A stretch of 64,000 bases of DNA from IMG/VR virus record IMGVR_UViG_3300045988_078326; one strand, 5' to 3'. Below are positions 1-64,000 of the stretch, piece by piece. The first letter of the stretch is position 1. Each line of letters begins with the position of its first letter. The DNA comes from a virus. The notes under the pieces were generated by a model. It was not told the DNA's origin, searched no databases, and worked only from the letters and a program-made list of their open reading frames with translations. Both the position numbers and the translations under genes were made by a program.

Positions 1-3
1 TCC

Positions 4-32
4 TTGATTTTTTATCTATTTTATGATATAAT
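4..32 (+). promoter_or_regulatory. sigma-70-like promoter for the early operon
   Basis: -35 TTGATT at 4-9, 17-nt spacer, extended -10 TGaTATAAT at 24-32. It lies directly upstream of the first + strand gene. Confidence 0.5.
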
Positions 33-69
33 ATTTATATAAGATTGTTATGAAAGGAGAGCGTAATGT

Positions 70-603
70 ATGGCTAAGCACATGGTAAAATGTTTTTACT
101 GTGGAGAAGTATTTGATGCATCAACTACACCATACGTTAAACCAAATTCAAGACGTTACGCTCATAAGACCTGTGCGCAAACGGCCGAGGAAAATAAAAC
201 GCAAGAAGAAAAGGATAGACAACTATTAGAAAATTATATAAAGAAGTTATTTGGAATTAACTGTATTTCTCCAAAAATTAAAAAACAAATTGAAACCTTT
301 AGAAAAGATAATAATTATTCATATACTGGAATGTATAAAACTTTAAAATACTTTTTTGAGATAAAAGGTAATTCTATTGAAAAGGCTAATGGAGGAATAG
401 GAATAGTTCCTTTTGTCTATGATGAAGCATATCTTTATTGGAGAGCATTATGGGAAGCAAGAGAAAGAAATGAGCAAATAGATATAGGAAAGTTTATTTT
501 GCCTGTAAGAGAAGTCCATATAGAACCTCCTCAACGGCAACCAATGAAACATATACGAAAGCTATTTACTTTCTTAAATGAGGAGGAAGCGCATGAAGAG
601 TAA
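70..603 (+). CDS. N-terminal zinc-ribbon protein; possible replication-initiation or helicase-loading factor
   Basis: 177-aa ORF with an N-terminal CxxC...HxxC cluster. It is the first gene of the replication module and overlaps the dnaB-like start. The functional assignment is inferred. Confidence 0.35.
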   Translation: MAKHMVKCFYCGEVFDASTTPYVKPNSRRYAHKTCAQTAEENKTQEEKDRQLLENYIKKLFGINCISPKIKKQIETFRKDNNYSYTGMYKTLKYFFEIKGNSIEKANGGIGIVPFVYDEAYLYWRALWEARERNEQIDIGKFILPVREVHIEPPQRQPMKHIRKLFTFLNEEEAHEE

Positions 604-2131
604 TTATATAGATACAGCGGCGATTACTTAGGTAATTGGATGTGTATTCAATAATGCTTCTATTCTTGATGATACAGATAAGTATATAATTCATGAAGAT
701 GACTTCCAAGAAGATTTTCATAAGATAATTTTCGGTAGTATCTATAATATCCATCTAACAGGTAGTCAAGTTAATATAGACGCGATTATAGATTATCTAG
801 CAAACAGACCAAAGTTTGACGCCATATTTAAGCAAAACAAGGGTGTAGAATATCTCCTTGAAGCATCGCAAAATGCAAGGCAAGATACTTTTAATTATTA
901 TTATAATAGATTAAAGAAGTTTACTTTGTTAAGAGCATATAGCAATTTTGGTCTTGATGTTAGCTATCTTTATGATCCAAATAATATCCTCGATACCAAA
1001 AAACGCCAAATGCAAGAAGATTGGCTGGATAATACTAGCTTAGTTGAAATAGCTCATGCTATTGATACAAAAATAGATGAAATCAAAAGTAAGTACATAG
1101 AAGATGATCTTGGATTAGGCTATCAAGCCGGAGACGGAATCAATGAACTTATTAGTGATTTAGAACAGCATCCCGAAGTTGGTATTCCACTATATGGCCC
1201 GTTAATTAATACAGTAACAAGAGGAGCAAGATTGCGAAAATTTTATTTGCGGTCGGCGGCTACGGGAACCGGTAAAACTAGATCTATGATAGCGGATGCG
1301 TGTAATTTTGCGTGCAATGAAATCTATCATGACCAATTTGGATGGATTAAAAATGGAACCTCTCAACCAACTTTGTTTATTGCCACAGAGCAAGATAAAA
1401 GCGAAGTTCAAACAATGATGTTAGCTTTCCTATCTGACGTAGATGAAGAACATATCCTTAACGGTCAATACTTTGAGGGTGAAAAAGAGAGGGTGCTAAA
1501 GGCCGCAGAAATAATTAAACGCAGTCCAATTTGGATAGAAGAATTACCAGATTTTTCTTTACAAGATGTAGAGAATAAAATAAAAAAGAATATTAGAGAA
1601 AATGAAGTTAAATATGTTCTTTTCGACTATCTTCAAACGTCGCTTAAAATTCTTGAAGAAATTAGTAAGAAGTCTGGGGGAGTTAGATTAAGAGAGGATA
1701 ATATCTTATTTATGCTCTCCGCTAGATTGAAAGATTTAGCTAATAAATATGGTGTATTTATCATGTCTGCAACTCAATTAAACGCCGATTATTAGAGTAG
1801 TGAAACGCCAGATCAAAATCTATTAAGAGGCGCAAAAAGTATAGCCGATAGAATAGACGTTGGCATGATTCTACTAAGTGTTACAGATGAGGACTTAGTT
1901 AAGTTAGATCCAATACTAGAGGGTAACAAGAACTTATTGCGTCCGAATCTAAAATTATCTATCTATAAAAATAGACGAGGTTCGTACAAAGGAGTATATC
2001 TATGGTGTTCTGCTAACTTAGGAACTTGTAGAATTTTACCACAATTTTGTACTAATTGGAGACATGAGATGGTGGGCATTGAAGATATTCGAGTAATTGT
2101 CGATGAAGGGCCAGCAGCTTGGGAAAAATAA
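593..2131 (+). CDS. dnaB: DnaB-like replicative helicase
   Basis: ATG at 593 joins ORF fragments 926..1795 and 1865..2131 in one frame. In-frame TAGs sit at 629-631 and 1793-1795. The N-terminal domain reads ...IDYLANRPKFDAIFKQNKGVEYLLEAS..., and the Walker A is RSAATGTGKT. The C-terminal part is DnaB-like. Confidence 0.85.
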
Positions 2132-2322
2132 TGGAGGAATATATAATGAAGAATAGTCAAGGTTTAGAGTACAGAATGAGCAAGAAAATGTTTAATGAGC
2201 TTCTTTCAAGCAGAACAGAGGAAGAAAAGAAACAGAATCCTTATGTTTATGTGATACAAATTATCAATGAGCAATTTGGCTTGAAAGAAACAGTAAATAA
2301 AGTATCTTTCTATGATGCTTAA
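2119..2322 (+). CDS. hypothetical small protein
   Basis: 67-aa ORF with an RBS-like GGAGGAA upstream, sitting between the helicase and primase genes. Confidence 0.4.
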   Translation: MGKIMEEYIMKNSQGLEYRMSKKMFNELLSSRTEEEKKQNPYVYVIQIINEQFGLKETVNKVSFYDA

Positions 2323-2324
2323 TT

Positions 2325-3428
2325 ATGTCAAGATACTATGATAAAGATGAGTTAAAGAGTAAACTTGAATTAGAACAAATTTATGATTTACTCGAAGCGT
2401 GGGGTGGTGAGCCTGAATATGTAGATGGCGGGCTCATCTCCCAAACTATATGTCATAATCTTCCCGGTGAAGGATCAAGAAAGTTATATTATTACGAAAA
2501 TACAAAACTTTTTAGGTGCTATACTGGATGCATAGATCCTACTTTTGATATATTTGACCTATGTATAAAGGTTAAAAAAAAGCAAGAAGATAAGAAATGG
2601 GAATTGTATAATGCTATGGATTATATAGCAGGATACTTTGGCTTCAACGGAGTAGAATTAGAAGATGAAAAAGAAGAATTAGAAGATTGGGATATATTTA
2701 GAAGGCATAATATTCAACTTCCAAAGTCCAAACAACCTATTTCTTTGAAAGAATATAATCCAATTATTCTTACTCGTTTTGCCTATCCTAGAATTTCAGG
2801 ATGGGAAGCTGAGGGAATTTTACCAGAAGTTAATAGAAGAAATTTTATTGGTTACTATCCTGGCGGAGGGCAAATAACAATTCCTCATTTCGATATTGAT
2901 AATAGATTAGTTGGAATAAGAGGGAGAACATTATCTTCTGAGGATGCAGAAAGATATGGTAAATATAGACCTCTTATGGTAAATAGACAGTTATACAATC
3001 ATCCTTTGAGCATGAATTTGTATAATTTAAACCATAGTAAAGAAAATATAAAAAAGGTGAAAGCCGCAATTATATTTGAATCAGAAAAAAGCTGTCTTAT
3101 GTATCAGTCTTATTATGGGTATGATAATGATATATCTGTGGCTTGTTGCGGAAGTAGTGTATCTAGCTATCATATAGATTTACTTAGGTCTTTAGGAGTT
3201 AATGAAATTATAATTGCTTTTGATAGACAATTTGTTGAGATTAGCGATGATGAATTTAAGAGATTAAAAGCAAAACTAATTCATATTTATAATAAATATA
3301 GTAAAAATGTTCGTATATCAGCTATATTTGATAAAGGAATGATTTTGCCATATAAAGCAAGTCCTATAGATAGAGGGCCGCAAATCTTTGAGAAGCTATT
3401 AAACGAAAGGATAATCCCTTATGAGTAA
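2325..3428 (+). CDS. dnaG: DnaG-like DNA primase
   Basis: CHC2-type zinc finger CHNLPGEGSRKLYYYENTKLFRCYTGC, followed by a TOPRIM-like region (IIFESEKSCLM...IIAFDRQFVE). 367 aa. Confidence 0.75.
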   Translation: MSRYYDKDELKSKLELEQIYDLLEAWGGEPEYVDGGLISQTICHNLPGEGSRKLYYYENTKLFRCYTGCIDPTFDIFDLCIKVKKKQEDKKWELYNAMDYIAGYFGFNGVELEDEKEELEDWDIFRRHNIQLPKSKQPISLKEYNPIILTRFAYPRISGWEAEGILPEVNRRNFIGYYPGGGQITIPHFDIDNRLVGIRGRTLSSEDAERYGKYRPLMVNRQLYNHPLSMNLYNLNHSKENIKKVKAAIIFESEKSCLMYQSYYGYDNDISVACCGSSVSSYHIDLLRSLGVNEIIIAFDRQFVEISDDEFKRLKAKLIHIYNKYSKNVRISAIFDKGMILPYKASPIDRGPQIFEKLLNERIIPYE

Positions 3429-3705
3429 AGAAGTTCTAAACTTAGTACCTGCTATTAAATCAATAGAAAAAGAGCTAAATGAATTGGCGCAGAGATATAA
3501 TAAGAAAATTCAACCATATTTAGATAGTTTAGAAAAACTTAGAGAAATAAATCAAGCGTGTGAACATTGTAACGGTACAGGTCGTGTTCTAAGAAACAGA
3601 TCTTGCGCAGAGGATGATAGGCCAGACCCTAATGATCTAAGTGATTATATTAAATGTAGGGGCTGTAATGGAACAGGACTGGCGCATCAAAATAAAAGGG
3701 AGTGA
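3421..3705 (+). CDS. DnaJ-type zinc-finger protein
   Basis: 94 aa with two CxxCxGxG motifs (CEHCNGTGRV, CRGCNGTGLA). Confidence 0.5.
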   Translation: MSKEVLNLVPAIKSIEKELNELAQRYNKKIQPYLDSLEKLREINQACEHCNGTGRVLRNRSCAEDDRPDPNDLSDYIKCRGCNGTGLAHQNKRE

Positions 3706-3711
3706 TAAGGA

Positions 3712-5463
3712 TTGGAATATTCATTAATAAATCCAAGAAATTAGAATTATAGTGCTTTAGAGCAAGTATTAGTTAATAGGGGTATTTAGTATAATGATAT
3801 ATAGCATTATTTAACAGTATCAGAAAAAGATAATTTATCCCCCTTACTTCTCAATAACATTGAGGACGCTGCTAAATTAATTATTAAACATATTTTAAAG
3901 GACGATTCTTACATCTATATCTAGGTAGATAGCGACTGTGATGGATATACTTCTTCTGCGTTGTTATTAAACTACCTTCATGCACAATTTCCTTCGGCCA
4001 TTAACAAGTTTATTTATAACTTTCATTCTGGCAAGATTCATGGAATAAAACCAGAGTTAATCCCCGAAAATGTTTCACTTGTTATTGCGCCAGATTCTAG
4101 CTCCAATGATTATCAAGAGCATGAAGAACTAGCTAATCGCGGAATTGACGTACTGGTCATAGACCATCACTTAGCAGATAAAGTATCCGAATATGCCTGC
4201 GTTGTTAATAATCAGCTTTGCGATTATCCAACAAAATCATTATCTGGTGTAGGAGTAGTTTATAAGCTATGCCAATATATGGATAGTATTTGCGGAACCG
4301 CATATGCGGACGATTATCTTGATATTGTAGCAACTGGTCTTGTTGGAGACATGATGGATATTCGAGATTTTGAAACTCATTATCTTATCCAGTAGGGGCT
4401 ATAGAGATCGAGTCTCCGCAATCCATTTATTAAAGGTATGGCTGATAAAAATGTTTATTAGTTAGGGAAAGGAGATTTAACTCCTATAGGAGTAGCGTTC
4501 TATATTGTTCCTCTTGTTAATGCTATTACTCGTGTGGGTACTCAAGACGAAAAGTAGATTCTATTTGAAAGTATGCTTGAATGGAAAGCATATGATCTTA
4601 TTCCTTCTACTAAACGAGGATGTAAGGGACAAGAAGAAACAAGATTAGAACAAGCACTAAGAGTTTGTACTAATGTTAAAAATCGTTAGACTAGAACTAG
4701 AGATGCAGAAGTTGAATGTATAGAGAATATAATCTAGGAAAATAATCTTCTGGAGCATAAAGTTCTGGCAATTAAATTAGATAATATGTCTATTGATAGA
4801 GGTATTACTGGGTTAATTGCTAACGAGTTAATGAGTAAATATAAACGACCTGTAGTTCTTCTTTCTAAAACAGAGCATGAAGGATTGGAGGCTTGGGAAG
4901 GGTCTGCTAGAGGATATGAAAAATCTAAAATGAAAGACTTTAGATAGTTTGTTAAAGAATCAAACTTAGTATTCCTCGCCGAAGGACACGCCAATGCTTT
5001 CGGTTTTGGTATTTATGATAAAGATTTTGAAAGTTTTATTTCATGGTCAGATAAATAGCTAAAAGATATAGAATTTTCTCCAAGTTACAAGGTAGATTTT
5101 ATTTACTCTATGTCAGATATTAATTCTAAGGATATTCTCGATTTAGGCGATGCAAAATATCTTTGGGGTCAAAATATCGACGAGCCGCTTATCGCGGTGG
5201 AAAATGTTGCAGTAACAAATGATATGATTGGTCTCATGTCACGAGACAAGAATCCTACTTTGAAGATTCAATTACCAAATGGAGTTACTTGCATCAAGTT
5301 TAAATCAAGCGAAGAGGAGCTAGATAATTTATCTAGCGAATTAGGTTGCGTGAGTATAAATTTGATTGGTAAACCAGAAGTAAATAGATACTTCGGTAGT
5401 GTGACACCACAAATTATTATTACAGATTATGAAATTATAAGTAGATAGAAGTATTACTTTTAA
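3712..5463 (+). CDS. recJ: RecJ-like DHH-family single-strand DNA exonuclease
   Basis: Hand translation with TAG read as sense joins ORFs 3961..4395 and 5110..5448. DHH motif I is VDSDCDGYTSSALL, motif III is VLVIDHH, and a DHHA1-like EGHANAFGF follows. Several in-frame TAGs are present (for example 3745, 3787, 3802, 3922, 5056, 5446). Start at TTG 3712 or nearby; end at TAA 5461-5463. Confidence 0.65.
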
Positions 5464-5502
5464 TGATTGCGCAACCTCTTACTAAAGGAGGAAACAATCA
5501 CA

Positions 5503-6270
5503 ATGAGACGTTTTATGAGTATTATACTAAGTTTAATCATTTTATTATCTATAATATGTAGTTGCAATAGTCCTTTCATTTCTATTGCATCAGCATATTC
5601 AGTACCGTATAACAGCAGTATTAGTTATACCTATAATGATTTAGATACATTGGTTGAGCTTATTGCGGAACAAATCTCTAATATGAACGCCGCACATCAA
5701 ATGGCCGATGCTGCTAGACAGTTAGGCTATTCTGAAAATCATGATGTTATCGAACTAGCCGTGAATGAATATGATAAGGCGAATGAGCTAAGACAATCTT
5801 ATCAAGATGTATATGATAACCTCATGGAACATTGGCATCAAAAGGAAGAAGAGTACCCAGTGGCAACATATATTTGGAGCTATTTCAAAGACTTAGGTTA
5901 TAACGATCAAGTTTGTGCGGGCATACTTGGTAATATAATGACTGAAGTTGGTGGTAATACATTGAACATTCAATATGAATTAAGCAATTCTTCATATTAT
6001 GGAATGTGTCAGTGGAATAAAGCGTATTCTGAGGTTTGGGGAGCCTCATTAGAAGAGCAATGCAATTATTTGAAAAATACTATTGAATATGAATTTAATA
6101 CATTCGGTCACGCCTATAAGAAAGGGTTTGACTATAATGATTTTCTAAATATGACAAGTATAACTGATACCGCTTTGGCATTTGCGAAATGCTATGAGAG
6201 GTGTGGATCTGGAAGTTATACGACAAGACAAAATAATGCAATTATCGCGTATAATTATTTTGTAAGCTAA
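5503..6270 (+). CDS. secreted or membrane-anchored lysozyme-like protein (phage tail-lysozyme family-like)
   Basis: ATG 5503 has a strong RBS (AAGGAGG). N-terminal signal/TM is MRRFMSIILSLIILLSIICSC. A conserved block AGILGNIMTEVGG...YYGMCQWNKAYSEVWGAS resembles phage tail-lysozyme or glucosaminidase-like domains. Confidence 0.45.
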   Translation: MRRFMSIILSLIILLSIICSCNSPFISIASAYSVPYNSSISYTYNDLDTLVELIAEQISNMNAAHQMADAARQLGYSENHDVIELAVNEYDKANELRQSYQDVYDNLMEHWHQKEEEYPVATYIWSYFKDLGYNDQVCAGILGNIMTEVGGNTLNIQYELSNSSYYGMCQWNKAYSEVWGASLEEQCNYLKNTIEYEFNTFGHAYKKGFDYNDFLNMTSITDTALAFAKCYERCGSGSYTTRQNNAIIAYNYFVS

Positions 6271-6279
6271 AATAAATAT

Positions 6280-6315
6280 CTGCGGGCTGGCCGGAACCTA
6301 GACGACCGCCCGCAG
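6280..6315 (+). terminator. GC-rich stem-loop; putative terminator after the lysozyme-like gene
   Basis: ctgcgggc...gcccgcag is a perfect 8-bp GC stem with a 20-nt loop, conspicuous in an AT-rich genome. A T-run lies about 20 nt downstream, which is not classical spacing. Confidence 0.35.
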
Positions 6316-6380
6316 GAAACTAAAATGGCTTTAACTATTTTTTGAGGTAAAATCGTCGGTTACGCGGTTTTATAAAATTT

Positions 6381-6575
6381 TTGGACAAATCCTACGAATT
6401 ATACTATAATAATATTCAGATAAGATATAAGAAAATAGGAGGAATTATTATTATGGTAAATAAATGTGTTGTATGTGGGAAGGATTTTGAGGCCATAAAA
6501 TCCACAAAGAAATATTGCAGTAATGATTGCATGAATGCTGCCAGAAGAGCTAGATATGGAGAACGACAAATTTAG
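6381..6575 (+). CDS. small zinc-ribbon protein
   Basis: 64 aa with CVVCGK...CSNDC. Confidence 0.4.
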   Translation: MDKSYELYYNNIQIRYKKIGGIIIMVNKCVVCGKDFEAIKSTKKYCSNDCMNAARRARYGERQI

Positions 6576-6980
6576 ATGGTTACTAATTCAATGGATTTAC
6601 ATAATAAAAGCTGTCTTATTTGTGGGAAAGATTTTACGCCTAAAACCCCCGCCGCGAATAATCGTCAATGCTGTTATAATTGTATGCCAGATGGAGTTCA
6701 ACTAACTAGAGGAATGTTTCTAGCTAAAATAAAAGAGCACCTAGGTGGAAGATGTATAAAATGTGGATACGATAAATGTTTAAAAGCTCTAGAATTTCAT
6801 CATTTAGATCCCTCTAAAAAAGATTTTACTATTAGTAACGATCATTTTAAGTTAAAAGAAGCGGTTGAAGAAGTAAAAAAATGTATTTTAATATGTTCTA
6901 ATTGTCATAAAGAATTACATGATAATTTATGGACTATAGATGAACTAAATCTTGAAGAAAAGGAGGAAGTAGAACCATGA
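6576..6980 (+). CDS. HNH homing-type endonuclease
   Basis: Two Cys pairs and the HNH core (CIKCGYDKCLKALEFHHLDP...CSNCHKELH). Its stop overlaps the next start as ATGA. Confidence 0.7.
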   Translation: MVTNSMDLHNKSCLICGKDFTPKTPAANNRQCCYNCMPDGVQLTRGMFLAKIKEHLGGRCIKCGYDKCLKALEFHHLDPSKKDFTISNDHFKLKEAVEEVKKCILICSNCHKELHDNLWTIDELNLEEKEEVEP

Positions 6981-8157
6981 CTCTAACTAACATGCAAGAG
7001 CAAGGTTTGAAAATCGCTGTAGCCCGATACAAAGCTCATGAGCCCTATACTTGTATCGCTGGCTACGCCTGACCGGAACAGGGAAAAGCACCTTAATTAA
7101 ATTTATTGTGGCTGCTCTTAATATGTATGAGGAAGAGGTTGCTTATATCGCTTTTACTGGAAAGGCTTCAGAAGTACTGCGAGAAAAAGGGTGTCCTAAT
7201 GCTCAAACCGCGCATAGATTACTTTATTATAGTAAACAAATGCCTAATGGTAAGTTTGTTTATAAACCTCGGCCACATATTGAATATAGTCTTATTGTTG
7301 TAGACGAGGTATCTATGTTACCTATTGATATGTGGGAATTGTTACTTTCTCATGGAGTATATGTTATTGCTTGCGGCGACCCGTTCCAGTTGCCACCTGT
7401 AGACAAGACTAAAGAAAACCATATACTTGACAACCCGCATATTTTCTTAGATGAGGTAATGAGACAAGCTAAAGAAAGCGATATTATTGTTACAAGTATG
7501 AATATCAGAGAAGGCAAATCAATCGTTCCAATGCGAGGAAATGATACTCAAATATTTAGAAAACAAGAACTTGTAGCTGGGATGTACGGTTGGGCCGATG
7601 AAATTCTTGTTGCGACAAATAAGAATAGATTTGATATAAATTAGTTTATGAGACTTGATGCCGGAAGAAGCTCAGAACCAGAAAGAGACGATAAAGTTAT
7701 TTGTCTAAGAAATACGTGGGATATTTGTTCTGTTAAAGATGAAAACCCTCTTATCAACGGCACAATAGGTTACTTAAAAGATTTCTCTCTAGTTACTATG
7801 CAGTACAAAACTCTTACTGAATCTTTTACGGCTCAAATACTTCTTTCTAGTATTGAGACAACCTCTGGAGACACCTATCTTGATGTTCCTATTGATTATA
7901 ATTCGCTTTTAACAGGTAAGAAAACTTTTACTCCACAGCAAGAATATTATCTTAATAAAAGAAAGGATAATCCACCTCTCCCAATAGAGTTTAACTATGG
8001 GTACGCAATCACTACTCATAGAGCCTAGGGTTCACAATGGGACAATGTATTGGTTATAGAGGAAAATTTTCCTTTCGATAAAGAAGAGCATGCTAGATGG
8101 CTTTATACCGCCTGCACTAGAGCAGCAAAGAAACTAACATTGATTTTAAAGAAATAA
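6977..8157 (+). CDS. dda: Dda/RecD-like SF1B DNA helicase, frame-disrupted inside the Walker A motif
   Basis: N-terminus MTLTNMQEQGLKIAVARYKAHEPYTCIAGYA resembles the T4 Dda start and runs into TGA at 7070-7072. Frame -1 continues as LTGTGKSTLIKFIVAAL... through ORF 7051..7644. In-frame TAGs at 7642-7644 and 8026-8028 continue to TAA at 8155-8157. Motif V reads THRA(TAG)GSQ, matching HKSQGS, and motif VI reads YTACTRAAKKL. Confidence 0.7.
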
Positions 8158-8199
8158 TATAGTATAATATATTATATAGTAATATAAGAGAGGTATAAT

Positions 8200-55684: not shown

Positions 55685-55700
55685 TAAAGCTAATCTATAA

Positions 55701-56237: not shown

Positions 56238-56249
56238 TAATTTCACCCC

Positions 56250-57050
56250 TTAGAACAAAGACTCTACCACAATAACTTTTTCTAGCGTAATATTTTCTTT
56301 TTCCCATATTAGAGTGAATTGACCATGAGTAGATTTATTCCATACTAAATCTACTGCTTTATTTCCATTCGGACATAAAGTTACAGGGAAATCTTTTTCT
56401 AGTATTGACCAAGTTCCATTAGGTTCTTCAACAGAATAAGTCTCTTTTATTAAGGGCTTAATGAAAGTTTCACCTAATATTCCACTTTCTGGAGTAGGAT
56501 CAACAGGCTCAAAAACTAATCCATCTTTCATACTATTCTCAATATCGTCTGTATCTCTATTGATATAGTCCTCTTCTGCATTGACTTCAATAACATTTCT
56601 CATGCTAATATCGTCTGGAGCCTAGACTTTCCAGCACCGTCCCGCAAATAGAAATTCTTTATATCTATCAAAAGCATGAATTGTTTTCTCATTTCTTGGC
56701 ATGAGGATATTTAAACTTAAATTAGGTTTATCTAATCTCTCTTGATTTTTCTGAATAGATTCTATCTAAGTTTCAACTGGCCCTCTAATTGCCGCCCATG
56801 TTTCACACCATTTTCCATCCTAATCTTTAAATTTAATCTTATATCTACAACGTCTTATTTCTCCTCTAAAGTAAGCATCCTCGGTTATTTCTTCTAAATA
56901 GATAATCCAATAAGTCCCAGTTCTTTTCCACTCAAAGACATCTCCCGGTTCATATTTTGCCATATGATCTATTGAAATTATCTTATCATCATAATCTTGT
57001 TTTACTTTATCGGGATTAATAAGCGCTCTATATATAGGATAAATACCCAT
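56250..57050 (-). CDS. hypothetical head-tail connector region protein
   Basis: ORFs 56820..57050 and 56250..56603 share a frame and are joined by sense TAGs. It may start further upstream, near 57198. Confidence 0.35.
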
Positions 57051-57218
57051 TTCATTATCAATAGCATCTAAAGATGCATCTAATACCTAAGATGATTTTT
57101 GTACCATCTAAACTGAACAACTTTGATAAGAATACTATAACGCTTTTTGAAGAGTGCGCCATTTATCCTTTATCATTCTATCTTCTTGCCGAACGCCGCC
57201 TTGCCACTCGAGTCTTTT

Positions 57219-57453
57219 CCTCATTAATTCAAGATTCGTCATCTTTTATTACCTATGCCAATAAATCTATACATCTAAAGACTGTTTTTCGATAAATCAT
57301 AAAATCTTCTTTACATACACTTGAAGTTAAACCTTCTAATTTAGATAATAAGATAAGACCTTCGACTTTATCTTTATATATCCTAACCAAACCACTAATT
57401 TCCTCTATCATAGTATTTAAATGATTTATCCAGTCTTCATCGTTTTCCTTCAT
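57219..57453 (-). CDS. small hypothetical protein
   Basis: ORF 57253..57453 extended through a sense TAG to TGA about 57219. Confidence 0.3.
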
Positions 57454-57538
57454 TGGTATTAACTTCCATAACTAATTGATTAGCCTCTTTAAGTCTTGCT
57501 CTCTAGTATCTAATGGAAAATCAATTTCATATTTATCC

Positions 57539-58069
57539 ATCAAAAACACTCGTTTCTCTAAGAGTAGACCAATTCGACTTATAAGACCCTTCATTATCAA
57601 TTAGTTTTCTTCTTTTATAAAGACGTTGCATATGGTGGCTTTGACGCTCAGCTTCCTTCTTTAGCTCTATCAATTTTGCTAAATGATTAGCCTAAGAAGT
57701 CATTTTAAAATCTGTACCAGAATATTTCATTCTCGTCTACTCTATTGATGCTACCTAACGCTATAACCAAGTATTATACATCAATAATGCAAGAATGTTT
57801 ATTTCTTCAGTTGTTAAATGTGCGGAAAAGGCTGGAACAGCAACCGTCCCAGTCTCTTCACTAGCTATCTCAACATTGGTAAAACTATATAATGGAAATC
57901 TAGGAAATTCAAACCCTGGGAGCGCATCCATTAAAATATTATACAAATCTTTCTCGGTATCTTCCTTAGTCCATTCCATATACATATCATCAGTAATTTT
58001 ACCAAAAAATCTATCGTACACTTCTTCAAAAAGGGTAGGATCGCCCTAAATTGGATACTTATTATCCAT
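57539..58069 (-). CDS. hypothetical head-tail connector region protein (about 176 aa)
   Basis: Strong RBS TAAGGGAGGTTATAGCC before ATG 58067-58069. Contains ORF 57761..58021 in frame. Sense TAGs. Ends at TAA about 57539. Confidence 0.4.
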
Positions 58070-58088
58070 GGCTATAACCTCCCTTATC

Positions 58089-58646
58089 TTACTCGGATAT
58101 AGTTACTCTACGCTTTGGAGTATCATCACTTGCAACCGATGCTCTTCTAACAGGCTTAACCTCATTTTTAGAATTTTTTCCTTCGTCCGCGGTTAATTCC
58201 AACGCTTTAGTAACGTTAAAACCTAATTGTTTTTCTATCGCATCTCGCTTTGAAATATCATTCAAAGGAAGAGAAACCGCGTGAGCCTTAATCAAATCTT
58301 TTGTCCCATCAGGGGCAAAATCAAGAGCATCCTTGAATTCATCCAAAGAGCATGACTGCATCCACGAATCAATATCTTTCTCTTTTAACCAATATTCTGG
58401 TTCAACTTTCCCATTAATAAGATATTCAATAATTTCTTTATCATCAATTAATAGATAATTATAAATCAGCTTGCGGCCTCCGGGTGTTTGAACCAACTTT
58501 TCAAGCTCAGATACACTAATCTCTTTATGCTCACCTGGATAGAACATACGACGTACACCAAGCTCAGGCAGTTTATATACCGCGCGGCCCGCACTTTTAT
58601 TATAAACAATACACTTATCTTTCATATTATATCTCCTTTTTCTCAA
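58089..58646 (-). CDS. hypothetical protein downstream of the major capsid gene
   Basis: 185-aa ORF. The likely true start is the internal ATG about 58625 after AAAAGGAGATATAAT. Confidence 0.4.
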   Translation of the reverse strand: MRKRRYNMKDKCIVYNKSAGRAVYKLPELGVRRMFYPGEHKEISVSELEKLVQTPGGRKLIYNYLLIDDKEIIEYLINGKVEPEYWLKEKDIDSWMQSCSLDEFKDALDFAPDGTKDLIKAHAVSLPLNDISKRDAIEKQLGFNVTKALELTADEGKNSKNEVKPVRRASVASDDTPKRRVTISE

Positions 58647-58651
58647 TAAAT

Positions 58652-58684
58652 AAAGGGGATAGGGATATTTCCCTATCCCCTTTT
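58652..58684 (-). terminator. rho-independent terminator/attenuator after the major capsid gene
   Basis: Perfect 14-bp stem aaaggggataggga/tccctatccccttt with a 5-nt loop, and a U-rich run on the minus strand. Confidence 0.5.
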
Positions 58685-58686
58685 AA

Positions 58687-59739
58687 TTAACCATTATTTG
58701 GATTTGGGTTAGTATTATCAAGCTCACCTTGAAGTTCAGTATCAACGTAAGAGAAAATGTTATTTGCCATCATTACGCCAACTCCGACCTTGCGGTAAAC
58801 CTGAATATCACGAGACCAGTCGTCGTTATCATCGCGCTCGCGCACGTGAGTAGTACCCTCAAAAGCAACTTTAACAGGACGAGTATCTGCTCCACCGGGG
58901 ATAACCCAAGCATAACCAGGGTCAATCATCTTTCTAGAGTTAGTCTCATCCTCAAGGGTTTGAGGTAGAATTACCACTCTAGTTCCCTTGTAGTTAGCAA
59001 GGTATCCAGTTCCCCAATACTGATCTCTCATGTTATCAGAAATCCAAGCCTCGTTGTCTGGAATCATCTTTACTGCAAACTCACGAGTACAGTAAATAGT
59101 GGGCTGACCATAAGCACTAGCAGTATTTACAAGATAATCCATAGTAGCTTCATCAAAACCAGCAACGGCACAACGGTTTGCCGCGGGAAGCTGATTAATA
59201 GAACCCATAAGAGCTTGAGCAATCTCTCTATAAATAAGCTCTTGCATACCCTCAGTTACAATCTGAGTAAGTTCTGCGAAGTTTACTCTTCCGTCGAGGA
59301 ACTCCTCGAATCCGATACGAGCAGCTCCGCCGATAGCACTTGTACCAACTTCGAAGCTCTCAGAACCGAGCTTAAAGGTCTCGTATACGCCAGCAAGTCC
59401 CACACGAGTGATGAATTGCTTAGCACGGGTAAGTCCAGTTCTACGAGTAAATACAGGTTTATCTCCCTGTCCGAAAGTTCTAATCTCGGCAAAATTGCCA
59501 TAAGAATTGAGTAAACGATTAGGAACAACTTCATCCATAGTTTGCTCAATTAAAGAGAATAGAGTATGTTTATTTTCTCTATAAAGTTCATCTGTGCCAA
59601 CAAGCTCATTTAACTCATTGCGCAAAGTGGTGTTCAAAGCGTCGTAGCTAAAGGATTCTCCTTGATAGCTATAGGTACCAGAAGGATTTGCATTGGCGAC
59701 AGTCTTCATTAAACTAAGTAAATTAGCTTTATCTAACAT
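58687..59739 (-). CDS. major capsid protein (HK97-fold family)
   Basis: 350 aa. It sits between the scaffold and head-completion genes, with composition and length typical of Firmicutes myophage/siphophage major capsid proteins. No TAG codons. Followed by a strong terminator hairpin. Confidence 0.65.
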   Translation of the reverse strand: MLDKANLLSLMKTVANANPSGTYSYQGESFSYDALNTTLRNELNELVGTDELYRENKHTLFSLIEQTMDEVVPNRLLNSYGNFAEIRTFGQGDKPVFTRRTGLTRAKQFITRVGLAGVYETFKLGSESFEVGTSAIGGAARIGFEEFLDGRVNFAELTQIVTEGMQELIYREIAQALMGSINQLPAANRCAVAGFDEATMDYLVNTASAYGQPTIYCTREFAVKMIPDNEAWISDNMRDQYWGTGYLANYKGTRVVILPQTLEDETNSRKMIDPGYAWVIPGGADTRPVKVAFEGTTHVRERDDNDDWSRDIQVYRKVGVGVMMANNIFSYVDTELQGELDNTNPNPNNG

Positions 59740-59758
59740 TCTTCTTCACTCCTTCCAA

Positions 59759-60448
59759 TTAACCTACACGCTGTACTTTTACACCGGGTTGAAGATCGGG
59801 CATGGTGTATACTTTTACTACTGTAAAGATAGGATCTAAATCTCCACCCTTAGCAGAAGATTCAGTATCCTCGGTTAAATAACCATCAGTACCAATCTTT
59901 AAACGATCTCCAACAGCAAGTGAACCGGCATCAGCCTTAATAGTATTAGTTGTCCAAATATCACCAATACTAATCTTAATTACACGTGGAACCATTTTAG
60001 TTCCTTCTGGCATCAAAGCTGGATAAGTAAATGTTTCCATATTCTTTTTATATGCTACGTTACTACCTTCACGTACAGCTTCACCAGTATAGTCATTAAT
60101 GGTAGCGAGTGTAGAAACGGTCTGTCCGATTGGGCTATAAACACGAGCGTTATAGTTATCTTTAATCATAGCAAAATCGGCATCAGTCTCACGATCTCTA
60201 TAAATTTTTACCTCATTGAATACCATCATCCAAGCACCAGAAGTAGCCTCTGTGCTAAAATCACATACACCCTTAGCATAGTCATACTTTACGAATTGAC
60301 CATTCTCAAGAAGGGTGATTGTGCTAGCAGCAGGAAGCTGGGCATATACCTGACCATTTCTTGGAGCGGAAAGATGGTTTGGTTCTACTTGACCATATCC
60401 ATATTGGACAAAAGTAGCATTACCTAATCTTTTAGAACTCTTAGCCAT
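59759..60448 (-). CDS. capsid-associated protein of unknown function
   Basis: 229-aa ORF between the scaffold and major capsid genes. No TAG codons. Confidence 0.4.
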   Translation of the reverse strand: MAKSSKRLGNATFVQYGYGQVEPNHLSAPRNGQVYAQLPAASTITLLENGQFVKYDYAKGVCDFSTEATSGAWMMVFNEVKIYRDRETDADFAMIKDNYNARVYSPIGQTVSTLATINDYTGEAVREGSNVAYKKNMETFTYPALMPEGTKMVPRVIKISIGDIWTTNTIKADAGSLAVGDRLKIGTDGYLTEDTESSAKGGDLDPIFTVVKVYTMPDLQPGVKVQRVG

Positions 60449-60461
60449 TCTTTAATCCTCC

Positions 60462-61589
60462 TTAAATACTGCTCTTAGCAGTCTCACGAATTGCTTTTAC
60501 CCAATCAGGAACATTATCTGTCTCTGGATGCTCCAAATTGAAAAGTCCTTTTGGGGTCTTATCATCCTCTTCATGTTTATCCTCAAGGTTAAAGTTTACC
60601 TTATTTCTAACACAAAGAATAGATAACTTAGCTTCAATATCATCTAAAGAATAAGTGTCAATATGCTCCACGACGTCTTTCTTATCATCATCGCTAAGCA
60701 TATAGAAACTATCAATCATTTGTTGCTTATTTTGACGTTCAGCTTTGAGCTTAAACTCTTTCAATTCATCAACTTCGGTATCTAGAGTATTCTTCTCTTG
60801 CTCAAGAGCAGAATATTTACTCTCTAATTCATTAAATTTAGCAAGCAACTCTGTATATTCAGTTACATCTTCGAGATTATACTTGCCTTTCTTATCCTTA
60901 TCCTCTTTTCCCTCTTTCTCAGGGGCAGGAGTTCCAGAAGAATTTTCTTTCTCCTTGTTTTTATCCTCTGGATTAGGATTATTTTTCTCGAATTCGGTAA
61001 GTGCTTTATTCTCATTATCCATAGGTTCTTGAGAGCCTCCTTTATTAAAAGTTTCTTTTAATTGATCCATCATAGAGTATACCATAGTTTTAAGTTTCTA
61101 AAACTCTTGATTACCCTCTAAAGAAAATTGAGAACTAAATTGAGCTCCCTCGAAACAAGGCTCAACATTTTCTCCGAGAACACATAATTTCTCAATCAAT
61201 GCTTCATTGTAGATAAAGATTCTTTCATTTGTTTTTTCATCTTTTGTCCAAAATCCTGACTGATTTTTTTCATTTAATTCCATAGAATGGTTGTTTCCAT
61301 TTTCTAAAATTCTCTTAGATTCTGGATAAACACCAGTCCAAATATATACATCAGTAACTAGATATTCTCTTTCTACACCTTCATCATTGAACTTCTAAAA
61401 CCATACATTAGCGTTATCTGGAACAAATCCATAAGGTCTTGTTACATCAACAATAGCAAACTTGCCGTCTTTAATATCAATCGCTCTATTGTGACCTTCA
61501 AAATCCTTTGTCTCTTGATTAAAATAGCCAACAATAGGACTTCCCGGCAATTTACGCCCCATCTCTACAGCTACTTCCTTAGTAATCAC
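60462..61589 (-). CDS. scaffolding-like protein (acidic coiled-coil C-terminal half)
   Basis: ORFs 61395..61589, 61098..61283 and 60462..61085 share one frame and are joined by sense TAGs at 61395-61397 and 61098-61100. GTG start 61587-61589 overlaps the portal stop as GTGA. The C-terminal half is Glu/Lys-rich coiled coil. Confidence 0.5.
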
Positions 61590-63358
61590 TGTATGATTGC
61601 GGTTTGGCTGTTGACCGACATAACAAACTTTACAAACGCCTTTGCTAACTAGAGGAGAAATCTAAGTGTTCTAAATATATTCCATTGTGTTTAAAATAGG
61701 AACACTAATATGCAAGTTCAATCCCTCCTTTATGACGAACTTTCTTGATTAGCTATTGTCTTATCAGACTTTTCGCCATCTTCCTTCTTTGGCCTTCCGG
61801 CTCCATTATTGTTAGTTGAACTTGTCTATTTATTCTAAGAATTAGTATTAGATGACTAATTATTATTACCCAAATCTTTTCCGCTTCTGGTATTAGAACT
61901 CATAGGAGGAATCATAATCTCCGCCAAGTTCAATACTTCATTCTCAAACGTTAATGTAGCTAAAATGCTTGATTGAGAATGCCCTAAAGCGATTTGTGGC
62001 AACATCTTAGAATATCCTAACTGAGCGTGTTCTTTATACAACTTTGATAATTCTTTATAATTAAACTATGTTGTTTCTAACATCTCAGCTCTAAATTCAT
62101 AATGATTCTTGCGATTGAATTTTTCTACCACTCTATTTAGTAATTCTGTAAACATGAGAGGTATATCTCTAACGCTAGATTCATCAGTCAATATAGAATT
62201 TGTTACAGCAATATTTCCATCGGCATTAAACAAATTATGAGTTACACCTGAATTGTTGTAAACTGTACGTTCAACCTTTTCCAAATCGTCGGTTGTTGTA
62301 TTGGAGTTATTGTCTTTTGTATCAATTTTTTCAATATCCGCAAAAGTTGTCAATACATCTACTCCAATAGCTCTTTTAAGCATTGCAACTGCGTTATTAT
62401 GAATATCTCTGGCTTCATCAACGTCAAAAATTAAATCACCATTCTTATCAAGAGGCAACTTCTAAATGATGATTTTCAATAGTTGCTACATTGTTTTTTG
62501 ACGATCCAATTCTTGCGCCTAATCCAAATCAATAATAGAAGGAATAACTCCCGCAAGAAAGGGAAATTCATTATCGTTTAAGCTAAACTTAACTGAAACA
62601 CTAGGATCTAGAGGATACCAAACAGTTGTACTCCCCGGGTAATCTCCCTTTAATTTCCCCTACTTATAAAGAATATAAGCCTTCTATATATCTTGAGGAA
62701 AAATCTTTAATATCTGAACCTTATACTGTGGGTTTGGGAAATAAACATCAAAAAACTCAAGATTTAATTCAACAATAGGATTAGGGCCTTGGAAATATCT
62801 ATTGCGACAATATGAAGCAGGTAGCTTCTAAATGGCAAACCTATCTCCGAAGTCAACAATTATACCATAATATGCCCCTTCTTTGATGATATCTAATGAT
62901 ATATTACCAAACATTCTCTTTATATTAGATTTATCAAGATAAAGCAATACTTTAGAAAAGTCTTTTAATAACTTCTCCTTATCTTTCTGCGCGCTTACGG
63001 TATATGGGGTTATATACCAATCAAATCTGTATAAGAAAGCTAGGTATTTACATAATCTGTAATATATACCGCTACTTTCATAGAAATAATTAGAGATTTC
63101 TCTTAGAGTTCTATAATCATGCTTATAAATAGCATTTAATACGAACTTCTTATCTCCATAATTTCTATTTATTTTCTTATATGTACCTAGATTAATAAGC
63201 GCATCATCTACCGAGCGAAGCCCCACCCGCATCTTAGCATAATCAATGCTCTTATAATCTAAGTCATCTTCTTCCTCTTGCTGCTAATAGCGAGTAACGT
63301 CTTGATTTAATAAATCAAAACCTTTGGCTCTAATACTTTCTTGTCTACTCTTTAACAA
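61586..63358 (-). CDS. portal protein (about 590 aa)
   Basis: TTG 63356-63358 after GGAGGTGA. ORFs 62828..63232, 62066..62458 and 61856..62041 share a frame. It continues through sense TAGs (61856, 61835, 61826, 61749) to TGA 61586-61588. Ser/Asn-rich acidic C-terminal tail. Confidence 0.5.
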
Positions 63359-63377
63359 AATATCACCTCCCGGATTC

Positions 63378-63738
63378 AGTATCCAGCCTTGCTCATTAAG
63401 TAATCATAAGAGATGATATTTTCCTCGGTATAGGGAACTTCTATAAGCGTAATTCCTTTTAAGGCACAAAATCTACGCTTTTGATTATCATTATATTTCT
63501 ATTGATATAATCCTCTATTTCCACCAAATTTACTTACAGCCTAATAGTGCTATTTTCCTTGATATTCAATTAAAAAATCAAGATTTCCATCGTCATCAAA
63601 AACAGCAAAATCAAAACGAAGTGGTCTACCGCTTGGCGCTTTTAACCCAGGAAATTCATACTCTTCTTTAAAGTTTATGCCATTTTGCTCTAGTATTTCA
63701 TGAATTTTAATTTCTCCACGACTAGCTTTCATACTCAC
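63378..63738 (-). CDS. Vsr-like / DUF559-type PD-(D/E)XK endonuclease domain protein
   Basis: ORF 63550..63738 extended through sense TAGs. Motif GRPLRFDFAVFDDDGNLDFLIEYQGKQHY...DNQKRRFCALKGITLIEV. Confidence 0.4.
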
Positions 63739-63803
63739 ACCTCGCTCATAAACATAAAGTCTGAAAATCTTCTACTTTTACGCTTGCGTTTACTATCTTC
63801 TTC

Positions 63804-63986
63804 CTATTTAATATAATACAACCCATATTCAAGCGCAGAGAATTTATCTTTAGGCACGGATTTATTTGCTTGTTTCAAAATAATATTCACGCCTTCATTT
63901 TCTTCTCGCAAATTCAGCATTTCTTCTCTTAATATAGAAGTTAAAGTGAACGGTTTTAAATATTCTGCCCGTTCTTCTGGTTTCAT
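63804..63986 (-). CDS. hypothetical protein; may continue upstream beyond the window
   Basis: 60-aa ORF at the window edge. The upstream frame is open to the window end. Confidence 0.25.
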   Translation of the reverse strand: MKPEERAEYLKPFTLTSILREEMLNLREENEGVNIILKQANKSVPKDKFSALEYGLYYIK

Positions 63987-64000
63987 AGCCTAACCTTTTT

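What the first reader, a model, noticed from the sequence alone, without database searches (positions are those of the whole stretch)
1..64000. No suppressor tRNA (CUA anticodon) was recognisable in this window, although early genes depend on TAG read-through
I scanned the intergenic stretches at 1-69, 6271-6380, 8158-8199, 12623-12679, 17811-17880, 21313-21447, 21838-21924, 22513-22638, 23952-24267, 26035-26115, 26611-27051, 28177-28268 and 51352-51461. I found no cloverleaf-like tRNA with T-loop (GTTCGAATC-like) and acceptor-arm features. An early replication module needing TAG decoding implies one of three things: a suppressor tRNA and perhaps release-factor modulators encoded elsewhere in the phage genome and expressed before replication genes are translated; a host that already tolerates or decodes UAG; or a prophage sitting in a natively recoded host.
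Basis: inference. Interest (0 to 1): 0.6.

Follow-up and report, generated by a model that had tools for sequence, protein, structure and literature searches.

The report
Suppressor tRNA lies outside the window
The window really has no tRNA, but it covers less than half of a roughly 145-kb gut phage that reads the TAG stop codon as glutamine; the phage's own TAG-decoding tRNA sits about 31-36 kb upstream of the window, so this is an ordinary case of a known phage strategy.

Summary
The negative observation is correct. ARAGORN (default and relaxed), Rfam down to E=10, and a BLAST with the phage's own tRNAs find no tRNA in the 64-kb window.

The premise is also correct. Counting TAG as sense raises long-ORF coverage from 52% to 97%. 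45 of 62 genes carry in-frame TAGs, including DnaB, PolIII-alpha, a helicase, a RecJ-like protein and RuvC. TAG aligns with Gln, which is genetic code 15.

The window is under half of a 141-149 kb SPbeta-like siphovirus, distantly related to phage phAss-1 and found in more than 1,000 human-gut assemblies. Walking along same-species contigs (98-99.9% identical, joined by overlaps) finds at least 29 tRNA genes. One is a Gln-type CUA tRNA at L194:8903-8977, about 31-36 kb upstream of window position 1.

That tRNA lies on the same strand as the replication genes, behind a perfect sigma-70 consensus promoter. The roughly 22 kb that follow it are TAG-free. TAG density then rises from 0.5 to 6.7 to 24 per 1000 codons (early, replication, late).

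No release factor or synthetase gene was found. The system is a known kind (Borges et al.; Babkin et al. 2023), so interest is low.

The parts
1..64000 (.). Whole window: no tRNA or tmRNA gene on either strand. It covers about 44% of a 141-149 kb TAG-recoded (code 15) phage genome.
   Evidence: no tRNA; ORF coverage 51.5% rising to 96.7% with TAG as sense; contig lengths 141-149 kb, with 290-297 kb concatemers.
70..18312 (+). Replication and nucleotide-metabolism module with sparse in-frame TAGs. Genes: YorH-like, DnaB 578-2131 (2 TAG), primase 2325-3428 (0), RecJ-like 4279-5463 (9), helicase 7123-8157 (2), PolIII-alpha 8200-12102 (1 TAG at 10978-10980), guanylate kinase 12071-12622 (3), NrdD 12689-14869 (0), NrdG, dUTPase, RuvC 17331-17810 (7).
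   Evidence: TAG map; exact TAG coordinates; Pfam; 6.7 TAG per 1000 codons in the middle/replication block.
12623..12688 (.). Short spacer just upstream of nrdD. In the relative phAss-1 this position holds two tRNA-Sup(CUA) genes and a tRNA-Leu. Here it is 66 bp and empty.
   Evidence: phAss-1 annotation: tRNA-Sup-CTA x2 and tRNA-Leu directly upstream of the class III RNR large subunit; sequence of the spacer; no tRNA.
29414..64000 (-). Late structural block with dense TAG use (about 24 per 1000 codons; TAG is about half of all Gln-type codons). It includes the tape-measure protein 42652-51177 (2841 aa, 99 TAG) and continues beyond the window end.
   Evidence: (Pfam YonB, YomU_Tube, YomW, YonD, YonG, PhageMin_Tail).
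58687..59739 (-). Major capsid protein (YonB family), TAG-free although it sits inside the TAG-dense late block. The tail tube gene 53550-54944 and the genes at 59759-60448, 58089-58625 and 51462-51992 are also TAG-free.
   Evidence: 0 TAG; PF27364 YonB, PF27173 YomU_Tube; tblastn hits to major capsid genes.
24397..28176 (+). Diversity-generating retroelement, a side feature.
   Evidence: 102-nt direct repeat, 85% identical; all mismatches fall at adenines of the 26642 copy; YMDD motif in the RT translation.

Best explanation
The window is an internal piece of a roughly 141-149 kb SPbeta-like tailed phage from the human gut. The host is probably a member of the Clostridia. The phage uses genetic code 15 (TAG = Gln).

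Its TAG decoder is a phage-encoded, glutamine-type suppressor tRNA with anticodon CUA. This tRNA lies outside the window, about 31-36 kb upstream of window position 1, within a conserved Ser(UGA)-Sup(CUA)-Leu(CAA)-Cys(GCA) cluster at the downstream end of a 29-gene tRNA array.

Shown:
- The tRNA exists in contigs of the same species.
- It is a well-formed cloverleaf with covariation.
- TAG aligns with Gln.
- The genes that follow the tRNA on the same strand are TAG-free for about 22 kb. TAG density then climbs through the replication genes to the late virion genes.

Inferred:
- On infection, the host RNA polymerase and the unmodified standard-code ribosome express the TAG-free early block and the tRNA array.
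- A host enzyme charges the CUA tRNA with Gln, either GlnRS or GluRS followed by GatCAB.
- Once the tRNA accumulates it outcompetes RF1 at UAG. This first permits synthesis of the replication proteins (1-9 TAGs each), and then of the TAG-rich tail, portal and tape-measure proteins.
- The most abundant virion proteins (capsid, tail tube) avoid TAG so that their yield is not limited by suppression efficiency.
For: (1) There is no tRNA in the window, but the window is under half of the genome (contigs of 141-149 kb).

(2) Same-species chain:
- The window is 98.7-99.7% identical to L001-L012.
- L178 is 99.9% identical to L001.
- L191 comes from contig ERZ28521505 NODE_11, which also carries an exact window protein (L010). 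L191 is 98% identical to L001 and L178.
- L194 and L195 are 99.4-99.8% identical to L191 over 8.7 kb.
- L194 and L195 each carry a CUA tRNA, at 8903-8977 and 8905-8979.

(3) The tRNA scores 61.6 bits against RF00005, whose threshold is 29. Across 14 distinct CUA tRNAs of the family, 16 of 20 cloverleaf pairs show compensatory changes.

(4) Gln-type features: U1 unpaired with position 72, G73, a D-arm nearly identical to the phage's own tRNA-Gln(UUG), and an encoded CCA.

(5) TAG = Gln:
- In relatives at least 85% identical, window-species TAG sites align with TAG (252) or Q (110), and only 8 with anything else.
- At lower identity Q remains the top residue, followed by E, K and R. The reverse tally agrees.

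(6) TAG gradient: 3 TAG in 6067 codons in the tRNA-proximal early block, 6.7 per 1000 in the middle/replication block, and 24.1 per 1000 in the late genes. All stops are TAA or TGA.

(7) A perfect TTGACA-17-TATAAT promoter with an upstream TG lies 445 nt upstream of the tRNA. A 9/12 match ends 17 nt before the tRNA.

(8) The same cluster with a CUA tRNA is present in three other lineages and in phAss-1 (PMC10607447).

(9) The arrangement matches the published model for alternatively coded phages (bioRxiv 10.1101/2021.08.26.457843).
Against: - The tRNA was found on other contigs of the same species (98-99.9% identity), not on the physical molecule from which the window was cut. Strain-level loss cannot be formally excluded.
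- Expression timing, charging with Gln and competition with RF1 are inferred from gene order, consensus promoters and sequence features. None of them is measured.
- Three in-frame TAGs are counted in the 'TAG-free' block. At least one lies in an ORF that overlaps a tRNA gene and is probably not real.
- About 20-25 kb of the window species itself was not read (between about 6 kb past the window end and the far upstream end of the tRNA array). That interval was only covered in species A, which is 72-89% identical.
- No helper factor (RF2, GlnRS) was found, so how suppression becomes efficient enough for a protein with 99 TAGs is unexplained.
Confidence: 0.88

Rival explanations
1. The host itself reads or tolerates UAG, either through a natively recoded host or a host-encoded amber suppressor, so the phage needs no tRNA of its own.
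For: There is no tRNA in 64 kb that includes essential TAG-bearing genes. Published surveys detect suppressor tRNAs in only about 40% of TAG-recoded phages. Some recoded relatives of phAss-1 were reported without one.
Against: - The same species encodes a CUA tRNA.
- About 22 kb of early genes avoid TAG entirely, as sense and as stop. That has no rationale in a recoded host.
- Code-matched phages of recoded hosts use the codon in about 90% of genes, whereas here use is graded.
- The MAG bins holding this phage are Eubacterium and Oscillospiraceae, taxa not known to be recoded (my own knowledge).
Confidence: 0.03
2. This particular strain has lost the suppressor tRNA and depends on a co-infecting relative, or is a defective genome.
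For: The window's own contig was not available beyond the window. Strains of this species differ by kilobase-scale indels: the NAD-salvage module is present or absent (L191 versus L192), and the tmRNA is present in L198 but not called in L196.
Against: - Every contig of the species that spans the site has the tRNA (L194, L195; 22 further similar places were not shown). So do all contigs of the three sister lineages.
- The window's genes are intact under code 15, with conserved TAG positions. That implies ongoing selection for read-through.
Confidence: 0.04
3. TAG encodes something other than Gln, for example pyrrolysine (ARAGORN labels the tRNA 'Pyl'), or Ser, Leu or Tyr through the long-variable-arm CUA tRNAs seen in sister lineages.
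For: ARAGORN calls every CUA tRNA 'tRNA-Pyl'. Lineage C and others carry a 91-nt CUA tRNA with a 16-nt variable arm, which resembles class II tRNAs.
Against: - TAG aligns with Gln in close and distant homologues.
- In the long-arm lineages the substitution profile of TAG fits Gln far better than any other residue (log-likelihood -365, against -536 for Lys and -712 for Ser).
- The window-species tRNA has a 5-bp anticodon stem, a normal D-loop with GG and a canonical GGTTCGAATCC T-loop. These are not the Pyl-tRNA shape as I know it.
- No pyl genes appear in any Pfam listing.
Confidence: 0.02

Closest known systems
Alternatively coded (genetic code 15, TAG to Gln) gut phages with a phage-encoded tRNA-Sup(CUA), as described by Borges et al. 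(bioRxiv 10.1101/2021.08.26.457843), with proteomic validation in crAss-like phages (PMC9523058)
   Same: - TAG aligns with Gln.
- The suppressor tRNA is phage-encoded.
- Early genes are standard-code-compatible and late structural genes are heavily recoded.
- Replication genes are variably recoded.
- The predicted host is standard-code Firmicutes.
- No dedicated synthetase is present.
   Different: - This is a different lineage: an SPbeta-like siphovirus of about 145 kb. Membership of any of the named clades (Agate, for example) was not tested.
- No RF2 was found, unlike some Lak and Agate phages.
- The suppressor is embedded in a near-complete 29-gene tRNA array, with a ROOL RNA and, in some strains, a tmRNA.
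Phage phAss-1 and the proposed genus Phassvirus (OQ749652.1; Babkin et al. 2023, PMC10607447)
   Same: - It is a human-gut phage of about 136 kb, placed in NCBI's 'Caudoviricetes code 15 clade'.
- It shows a syntenic NAMPT, PRPP synthetase and nicotinamidase block, and PolIII-alpha followed by NrdD and NrdG.
- It has a large tRNA array (36 genes).
- Its second Sup(CUA) tRNA is nearly identical to the one in this family.
   Different: - The major capsid protein is only 51% identical and there is no megablast match, so this is not the same genus.
- phAss-1 has three Sup genes, two of them directly upstream of nrdD. Here that site is empty, and a single Sup lies in the early tRNA cluster.
Bacillus phage SPbeta and SPbeta-like phages of Firmicutes (Enterococcus EF1, Staphylococcus, Mammaliicoccus)
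   Same: - Virion and replication proteins hit the SPbeta-derived Pfam families YorH, YorF, YonG, YonD, YonB, YomW, YomV and YomU.
- Genome size is 130-150 kb.
- The major capsid protein is 38% identical to that of Enterococcus phage EF1.
   Different: Those phages use the standard code (stated for EF1 in PMC10607447) and lack the suppressor tRNA.

Membership tests
Genetic code 15 (TAG to Gln) phage | Genes are fragmented under the standard code and restored when TAG, and only TAG, is read as sense. | tested here: met
   coverage by ORFs of at least 100 aa is 51.5% under the standard code, 96.7% with TAG as sense and 54.8% with TGA as sense; 349 in-frame TAGs, and all genes end in TAA or TGA.
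Genetic code 15 (TAG to Gln) phage | In-frame TAG aligns with glutamine in homologues. | tested here: met
   in relatives at least 85% identical, 252 TAG, 110 Q and 8 other; at 60-85%, Q 231, then TAG 117 and E 64; the TAG substitution profile fits Q best.
Genetic code 15 (TAG to Gln) phage | The phage encodes a suppressor tRNA with anticodon CUA. | tested here: met
   It is not in the window. It is present in same-species contigs at L194:8903-8977 and L195:8905-8979 (species chain). Rfam score 61.6 bits; covariation.
Genetic code 15 (TAG to Gln) phage | Early genes and the code-change machinery are standard-code-compatible, and late structural and lysis genes are recoded. | tested here: met
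   0.49, 6.7 and 24.1 TAG per 1000 codons in the early, middle and late blocks. Timing is inferred from gene order only.
Genetic code 15 (TAG to Gln) phage | Gln is incorporated at UAG in the proteins. | not testable with these tools
   This needs virion proteomics, as was done for crAss-like phages in PMC9523058.
tRNA (Rfam RF00005) | Cloverleaf secondary structure and conserved D and T loops, scoring above the family threshold. | tested here: met
   61.6 bits against a gathering score of 29. ARAGORN drawing; 16 of 20 pairs have compensatory changes.
Pyrrolysine tRNA (the ARAGORN label) | Atypical Pyl-tRNA shape (6-bp anticodon stem, 3-nt variable loop, small D-loop, no canonical T-loop; features recalled from my own knowledge) together with pylS and pylBCD genes. 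| tested here: not met
   5-bp anticodon stem, normal D-loop with GG, and a GGTTCGAATCC T-loop. No Pyl genes in the Pfam listings. TAG aligns with Gln.
Proposed genus Phassvirus (phAss-1) | Genus-level nucleotide similarity to phAss-1. The three named members are 80-86% identical to one another. | tested here: not met
   no megablast match for window 1-25000 in the phage collection that contains OQ749652.1; the major capsid protein is 51% identical. This phage is related, but outside the genus.
SPbeta-like siphoviruses | The SPbeta-type set of virion and replication protein families in conserved order. | tested here: met
   PF26927 YorH, PF27337 YorF, PF27269 YonG_N, PF27290 YonD_N, PF27364 YonB, PF27256 YomW, PF27211 YomV, PF27173 YomU_Tube. 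This is domain-level evidence only, with no phylogeny.
Code-change module with a release factor or synthetase (Jade, Lak or Agate type) | A phage-encoded RF1 or RF2, and/or a GlnRS or TrpRS, next to the suppressor tRNA. | tested here: not met
   There are no PF00472 or PF03462 hits and no aaRS hits in the precomputed Pfam, nor. A six-frame screen with a GGQ-domain peptide written from memory gave only E>1 noise. Not every ORF of the window's 18-50 kb stretch was scanned with Pfam.

The most novel reading that the evidence does not exclude
The phage may use graded TAG density as a translational timer that needs nothing beyond a single Gln-type CUA tRNA, with no RF2 and no synthetase. In this reading:
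- One or two 'checkpoint' TAGs in DnaB and PolIII-alpha hold back replication until the tRNA has accumulated.
- 2-6% TAG in the tail and tape-measure genes delays virion assembly further.
- The capsid and tail tube genes are kept TAG-free for maximal yield.

The unusual conserved features of the tRNA (the U1/U72 mismatch and, in sister lineages, a 16-nt expanded variable arm), or neighbouring early genes (a Thg1-like enzyme, an RNA ligase/kinase/phosphatase repair set, a YqeY/GatB-like protein, PTH2, a tmRNA, a ROOL RNA), might be what makes suppression efficient enough to read 99 TAGs in one protein.
Probability: 0.12. Interest if true: 0.55.

Novelty: new member of a known kind. Interest (0 to 1): 0.2.

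Why it matters
As a finding it matters little. The missing tRNA is an effect of where the window was cut, and the system fits the published model of stop-codon-recoded gut phages.

It is useful in three practical ways:
- It shows that a negative tRNA scan of a partial genome says nothing about how a recoded phage decodes its codon.
- It documents that a very widespread human-gut phage (its proteins are indexed in roughly 1,000-1,400 blocks of the public-assembly collection searched) is a code-15 phage. Standard-code annotation pipelines will shred its genes.
- It gives an unusually clean early, middle and late gradient of TAG use around a single suppressor tRNA. That would make the phage a good experimental model for testing the 'code switch as timer' idea if a host were found.

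Tried and rejected
- Megablast of window 1-25000 against GenBank phages found no match. A second query was rejected for being one base too long.
- An exact 39-mer from the upstream flank found nothing in IMG/VR. IMG/VR holds only sister species at 72-89% identity.
- I expected the tRNA array at the position syntenic with phAss-1, just upstream of the nicotinamidase gene. In this lineage that stretch is protein-coding and has no RNA hits.
- I expected tRNAs upstream of nrdD, as in phAss-1. That spacer is 66 bp and empty.
- L170 (a 147,161-bp contig) looked like the window species because of its length, but it is only about 70% identical to species A, so I rejected it. L180 and L185 were rejected in the same way.
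- The first Thg1 look-up landed at a contig end (L178). The route that worked went through cluster members P0456 and P0437.
- Release-factor search: Pfam on the large unannotated proteins and a GGQ-motif six-frame screen were both negative.
- Host search in GTDB genomes returned only binned free-phage contigs, so host codon usage could not be examined.
- Relaxed ARAGORN settings with introns produced about 100 calls with kilobase-sized introns. I discarded these as noise.
- The idea that long-variable-arm CUA tRNAs signal a different amino acid was tested and rejected.

Full report
**1. The observation**

Both halves hold.
- ARAGORN finds no tRNA or tmRNA in 1-64000. Relaxed thresholds also give nothing, and only intron-permitting settings at very low stringency produce calls. 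Those calls have kilobase-sized 'introns' and are noise.
- Rfam finds nothing at gathering thresholds and no tRNA-family hit even at E<=10.
- After I recovered the phage's own tRNAs (below), a BLAST of all of them against the window gave only 11-17-nt chance matches, and none for the suppressor.

**2. The premise**
- Open frames of at least 100 codons cover 51.5% of the window under the standard code, 96.7% if TAG is sense and 54.8% if TGA is sense.
- With TAG as sense, 62 genes tile the window. 45 of them carry 349 in-frame TAGs in total, and every gene ends in TAA or TGA.
- The plus-strand module at 70-18312 is a replication and nucleotide-metabolism module: DnaB, primase, a RecJ-like protein, a helicase, PolIII-alpha, guanylate kinase, NrdD and NrdG, dUTPase and RuvC.
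- That module does contain TAGs. DnaB has them at 629-631 and 1793-1795, and PolIII-alpha at 10978-10980. The helicase has 2, the RecJ-like gene 9 and RuvC 7.
- So these proteins cannot be made without TAG decoding.

**3. What the window belongs to**
- TAG-free proteins from the two ends of the window occur, letter for letter, in roughly 670-1,400 blocks of the public assembly collection. Their contigs are 141-149 kb, with 290-297 kb apparent concatemers. These contigs are 98.7-99.7% identical to the window.
- The window is therefore under half of the genome.
- Pfam hits to the SPbeta-derived families YorH, YorF, YonG, YonD, YonB, YomW, YomV and YomU show an SPbeta-like siphovirus.
- The nearest GenBank genome is phage phAss-1 (OQ749652.1), with a major capsid protein 51% identical. 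NCBI places it in the 'Caudoviricetes code 15 clade'.
- phAss-1 was described with 36 tRNA genes, three of them tRNA-Sup(CUA). The same paper notes that some divergent recoded relatives have no detectable suppressor (PMC10607447). It was therefore an open question which case applies here.

**4. Finding the tRNA**
- No tRNA lies within 10 kb of either window end.
- In phAss-1 two Sup genes sit directly upstream of nrdD. The same spot in the window, 12623-12688, is a 66-bp empty spacer.
- I walked upstream through IMG/VR relatives. The closest is 'species A', contig IMGVR_UViG_3300045988_084596, which is 80-89% identical to the window species.
- The walk passed gyrase, a PhoH-like gene, a Thg1-like gene, an NAD-salvage block syntenic with phAss-1, an RNA ligase and a metallophosphatase, all without tRNAs.
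- It then reached a cluster of tRNA-Ser(UGA), a CUA-anticodon tRNA, tRNA-Leu(CAA) and tRNA-Cys(GCA).
- Two further lineages have the same cluster (L170; L180 and L185). Both proved not to be the window species.

To reach the window species itself I chained overlapping contigs:
- L178 is 99.9% identical to L001.
- L191 comes from contig ERZ28521505 NODE_11, which also holds an exact window protein (L010). It is 98% identical to L001 and L178, and its upstream end enters a 507-aa DUF2828 gene.
- Looking up the matching DUF2828 variant gave L194 and L195, which are 99.4-99.8% identical to L191 over 8.7 kb.
- L194 and L195 each carry the CUA tRNA, at L194:8903-8977 and L195:8905-8979, in the same four-tRNA cluster.
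- By the overlaps, the tRNA lies about 31 kb upstream of window position 1 in strains without the NAD-salvage block, and about 35-36 kb upstream in strains that have it.

A JGI/ENA metagenome scan extended the window species a further 10 kb upstream. L196 is 97.7-98.5% identical to L194 and revealed 24 more tRNAs. In total the species has 29 tRNAs for 19 amino acids plus the suppressor. Some strains also have a tmRNA (L198).

I closed the whole genome of species A by overlaps. It contains exactly one CUA tRNA.

**5. The tRNA and the meaning of TAG**
- The CUA tRNA scores 61.6 bits on the Rfam tRNA model, whose threshold is 29.
- Among 14 distinct CUA tRNAs from this phage family, 16 of 20 cloverleaf pairs show compensatory changes.
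- It has U1 unpaired with position 72, G73, a D-arm almost identical to the phage's own tRNA-Gln(UUG), and an encoded CCA. From general knowledge of Gln identity elements, these features fit a glutamine acceptor.
- ARAGORN's label 'Pyl' merely reflects the anticodon. The shape is not that of a Pyl tRNA.

Independent evidence for Gln:
- At window-species TAG sites, relatives at least 85% identical have TAG (252) or Gln (110), and only 8 have anything else.
- At 60-85% identity, Gln (231) leads, ahead of TAG, E, R and K.
- The reverse comparison agrees. In-frame stop-type codons in relatives are almost all TAG.
- Sister lineages whose CUA tRNA has a 16-nt expanded variable arm also fit Gln best (log-likelihood -365, against -536 for Lys).

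**6. How it most likely works**

On a composite of the window species, the plus-strand genes that follow the tRNA cluster contain 3 TAGs in 6067 codons between -36.3 and -12.9 kb. That is 0.49 per 1000, and at least one of the three lies in an ORF that overlaps a tRNA gene. These genes also never use TAG as a stop.

The next block, from -12.9 to +18.4 kb, includes the window's replication genes and has 6.7 TAG per 1000 codons. The minus-strand late block has 24.1 per 1000, with TAG making up 52% of Gln-type codons.

A perfect sigma-70 consensus promoter (TTGACA-17-TATAAT, with TG) lies 445 nt upstream of the tRNA, and a weaker one lies immediately upstream of it.

These are the shown facts. 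The inference is the published model:
- The host polymerase and the standard-code ribosome express the TAG-free early genes and the tRNA array.
- A host enzyme charges the CUA tRNA with Gln.
- Suppression then unlocks first the sparsely recoded replication genes, and later the heavily recoded virion genes.

The major capsid, tail tube and three other late genes are TAG-free. I read this as avoidance of a slow codon in the most abundant proteins, which is inference.

**7. The rivals**
- A natively recoded or suppressor-bearing host is disfavoured by the phage's own tRNA and by the TAG-free early block.
- The only bacterial-genome hits are free, phage-length contigs binned into Eubacterium and Oscillospiraceae MAGs, not prophages.
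- Strain-specific loss cannot be excluded without the window's own contig. However, every contig spanning the site in four lineages has the tRNA.
- No release-factor or synthetase gene was found in the precomputed Pfam lists, in my Pfam scans, or in a coarse GGQ-motif screen. Novel RF1-targeting factors cannot be tested here.

**8. Comparison and novelty**

This is a code-15 phage of the kind surveyed by Borges et al. It is a distant, different-genus relative of phAss-1 (Babkin et al. 2023), and its Thg1-like protein is already in GenBank as a 'Caudoviricetes sp.' TPA protein (DAO08478.1). It differs from phAss-1 in having one suppressor gene rather than three, placed at a different position.

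It is a new member of a known kind. The finding itself is explained by where the window was cut. I score interest at 0.2.

Noticed in passing
window 24397-28176 (VR 25919-26020, TR 26642-26743, RT 27052-28176): A complete diversity-generating retroelement. A 102-nt repeat pair is 85% identical, and every mismatch falls at an adenine of the copy upstream of the reverse transcriptase. The variable copy forms the 3' end of a 545-aa Ig-like/lectin-type gene.
   Followed up: partly
L194:181-776 (+), about 43 kb upstream of window position 1 in the window species: A full-length ROOL RNA (Rfam RF03087, 353 bits, E=1e-81) lies between tRNA-Gln(UUG) and tRNA-Gln(CUG) inside the phage tRNA array.
   Followed up: no
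L198:1957-2272, L202:6707-7022, also L210, L223, L230 and L240: A phage-encoded tmRNA (tag peptide DNDYFENYLAA or variants) sits inside the tRNA array in some strains and sister lineages. ARAGORN does not call it in L196 of the window species.
   Followed up: no
L170:8407-8497; L210, L223, L228, L230, L232; phAss-1 L076:12445-12532: Many sister lineages carry a 91-nt CUA tRNA with the same Gln-like body plus a 16-nt expanded variable arm. In some it has moved to a different place in the array (between tRNA-Asp and tRNA-Ala). TAG still fits Gln best in those lineages.
   Followed up: partly
L191/L192 1-12000, L178 1-3500, L194 14000-21500 (window species, -32 to -16 kb): The TAG-free early block encodes a tRNA-repair-like set: a Thg1-like guanylyltransferase, an AAA_33/KTI12 kinase, two metallophosphatases and an RNA ligase. 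It also encodes an NAD-salvage block (nicotinamidase, PRPP synthetase, NAMPT, NAD synthase) with an embedded YqeY/GatB-like protein. The whole NAD block, including YqeY, is absent in strain NODE_11 (L191), so it is dispensable.
   Followed up: partly
L194:10001-14340 (DUF2828/DUF7788 protein followed by an MVP-shoulder/Vault_3 protein): Directly downstream of the suppressor tRNA cluster, in all lineages, is a conserved pair: a 500-510-aa DUF2828 protein and a roughly 810-aa protein with major-vault-protein shoulder homology. Their function is unknown.
   Followed up: no
L009:1-930 and L012 (about 6 kb beyond the window's right end): A PARG-like poly(ADP-ribose) glycohydrolase and a PTH2-type peptidyl-tRNA hydrolase are encoded just past the late operon. 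They are followed (in species A) by about 25 kb of small, nearly TAG-free plus-strand genes leading into the tRNA array.
   Followed up: partly
L194:1043-1161 and 1359-1443: Rfam finds two further tRNA-like hits (49.6 and 32.4 bits) that ARAGORN does not call. The first is 119 nt long, so it may carry an insertion or intron. tRNA-Tyr is the one isotype missing from the ARAGORN list for the window species.
   Followed up: no
L281:13264-14211, L158:2861-3763, window-species composite -4270..-3359 (GIY-YIG): Homing-endonuclease-like genes are scattered through the otherwise TAG-poor early and middle regions and are themselves TAG-rich (4-11 TAGs). They include proteins with a repeated 'LTGQRFG' zinc-ribbon motif plus DUF2726, and GIY-YIG genes. 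This suggests mobile genes adapted to the phage's code.
   Followed up: no
L194:3841-7460 (window species, -39.9 to -36.3 kb): Three 354-445-aa proteins with weak Mtd_N (major tropism determinant N-terminal) matches, and 1-3 TAGs each, sit between the two parts of the tRNA array, far from the structural module.
   Followed up: no
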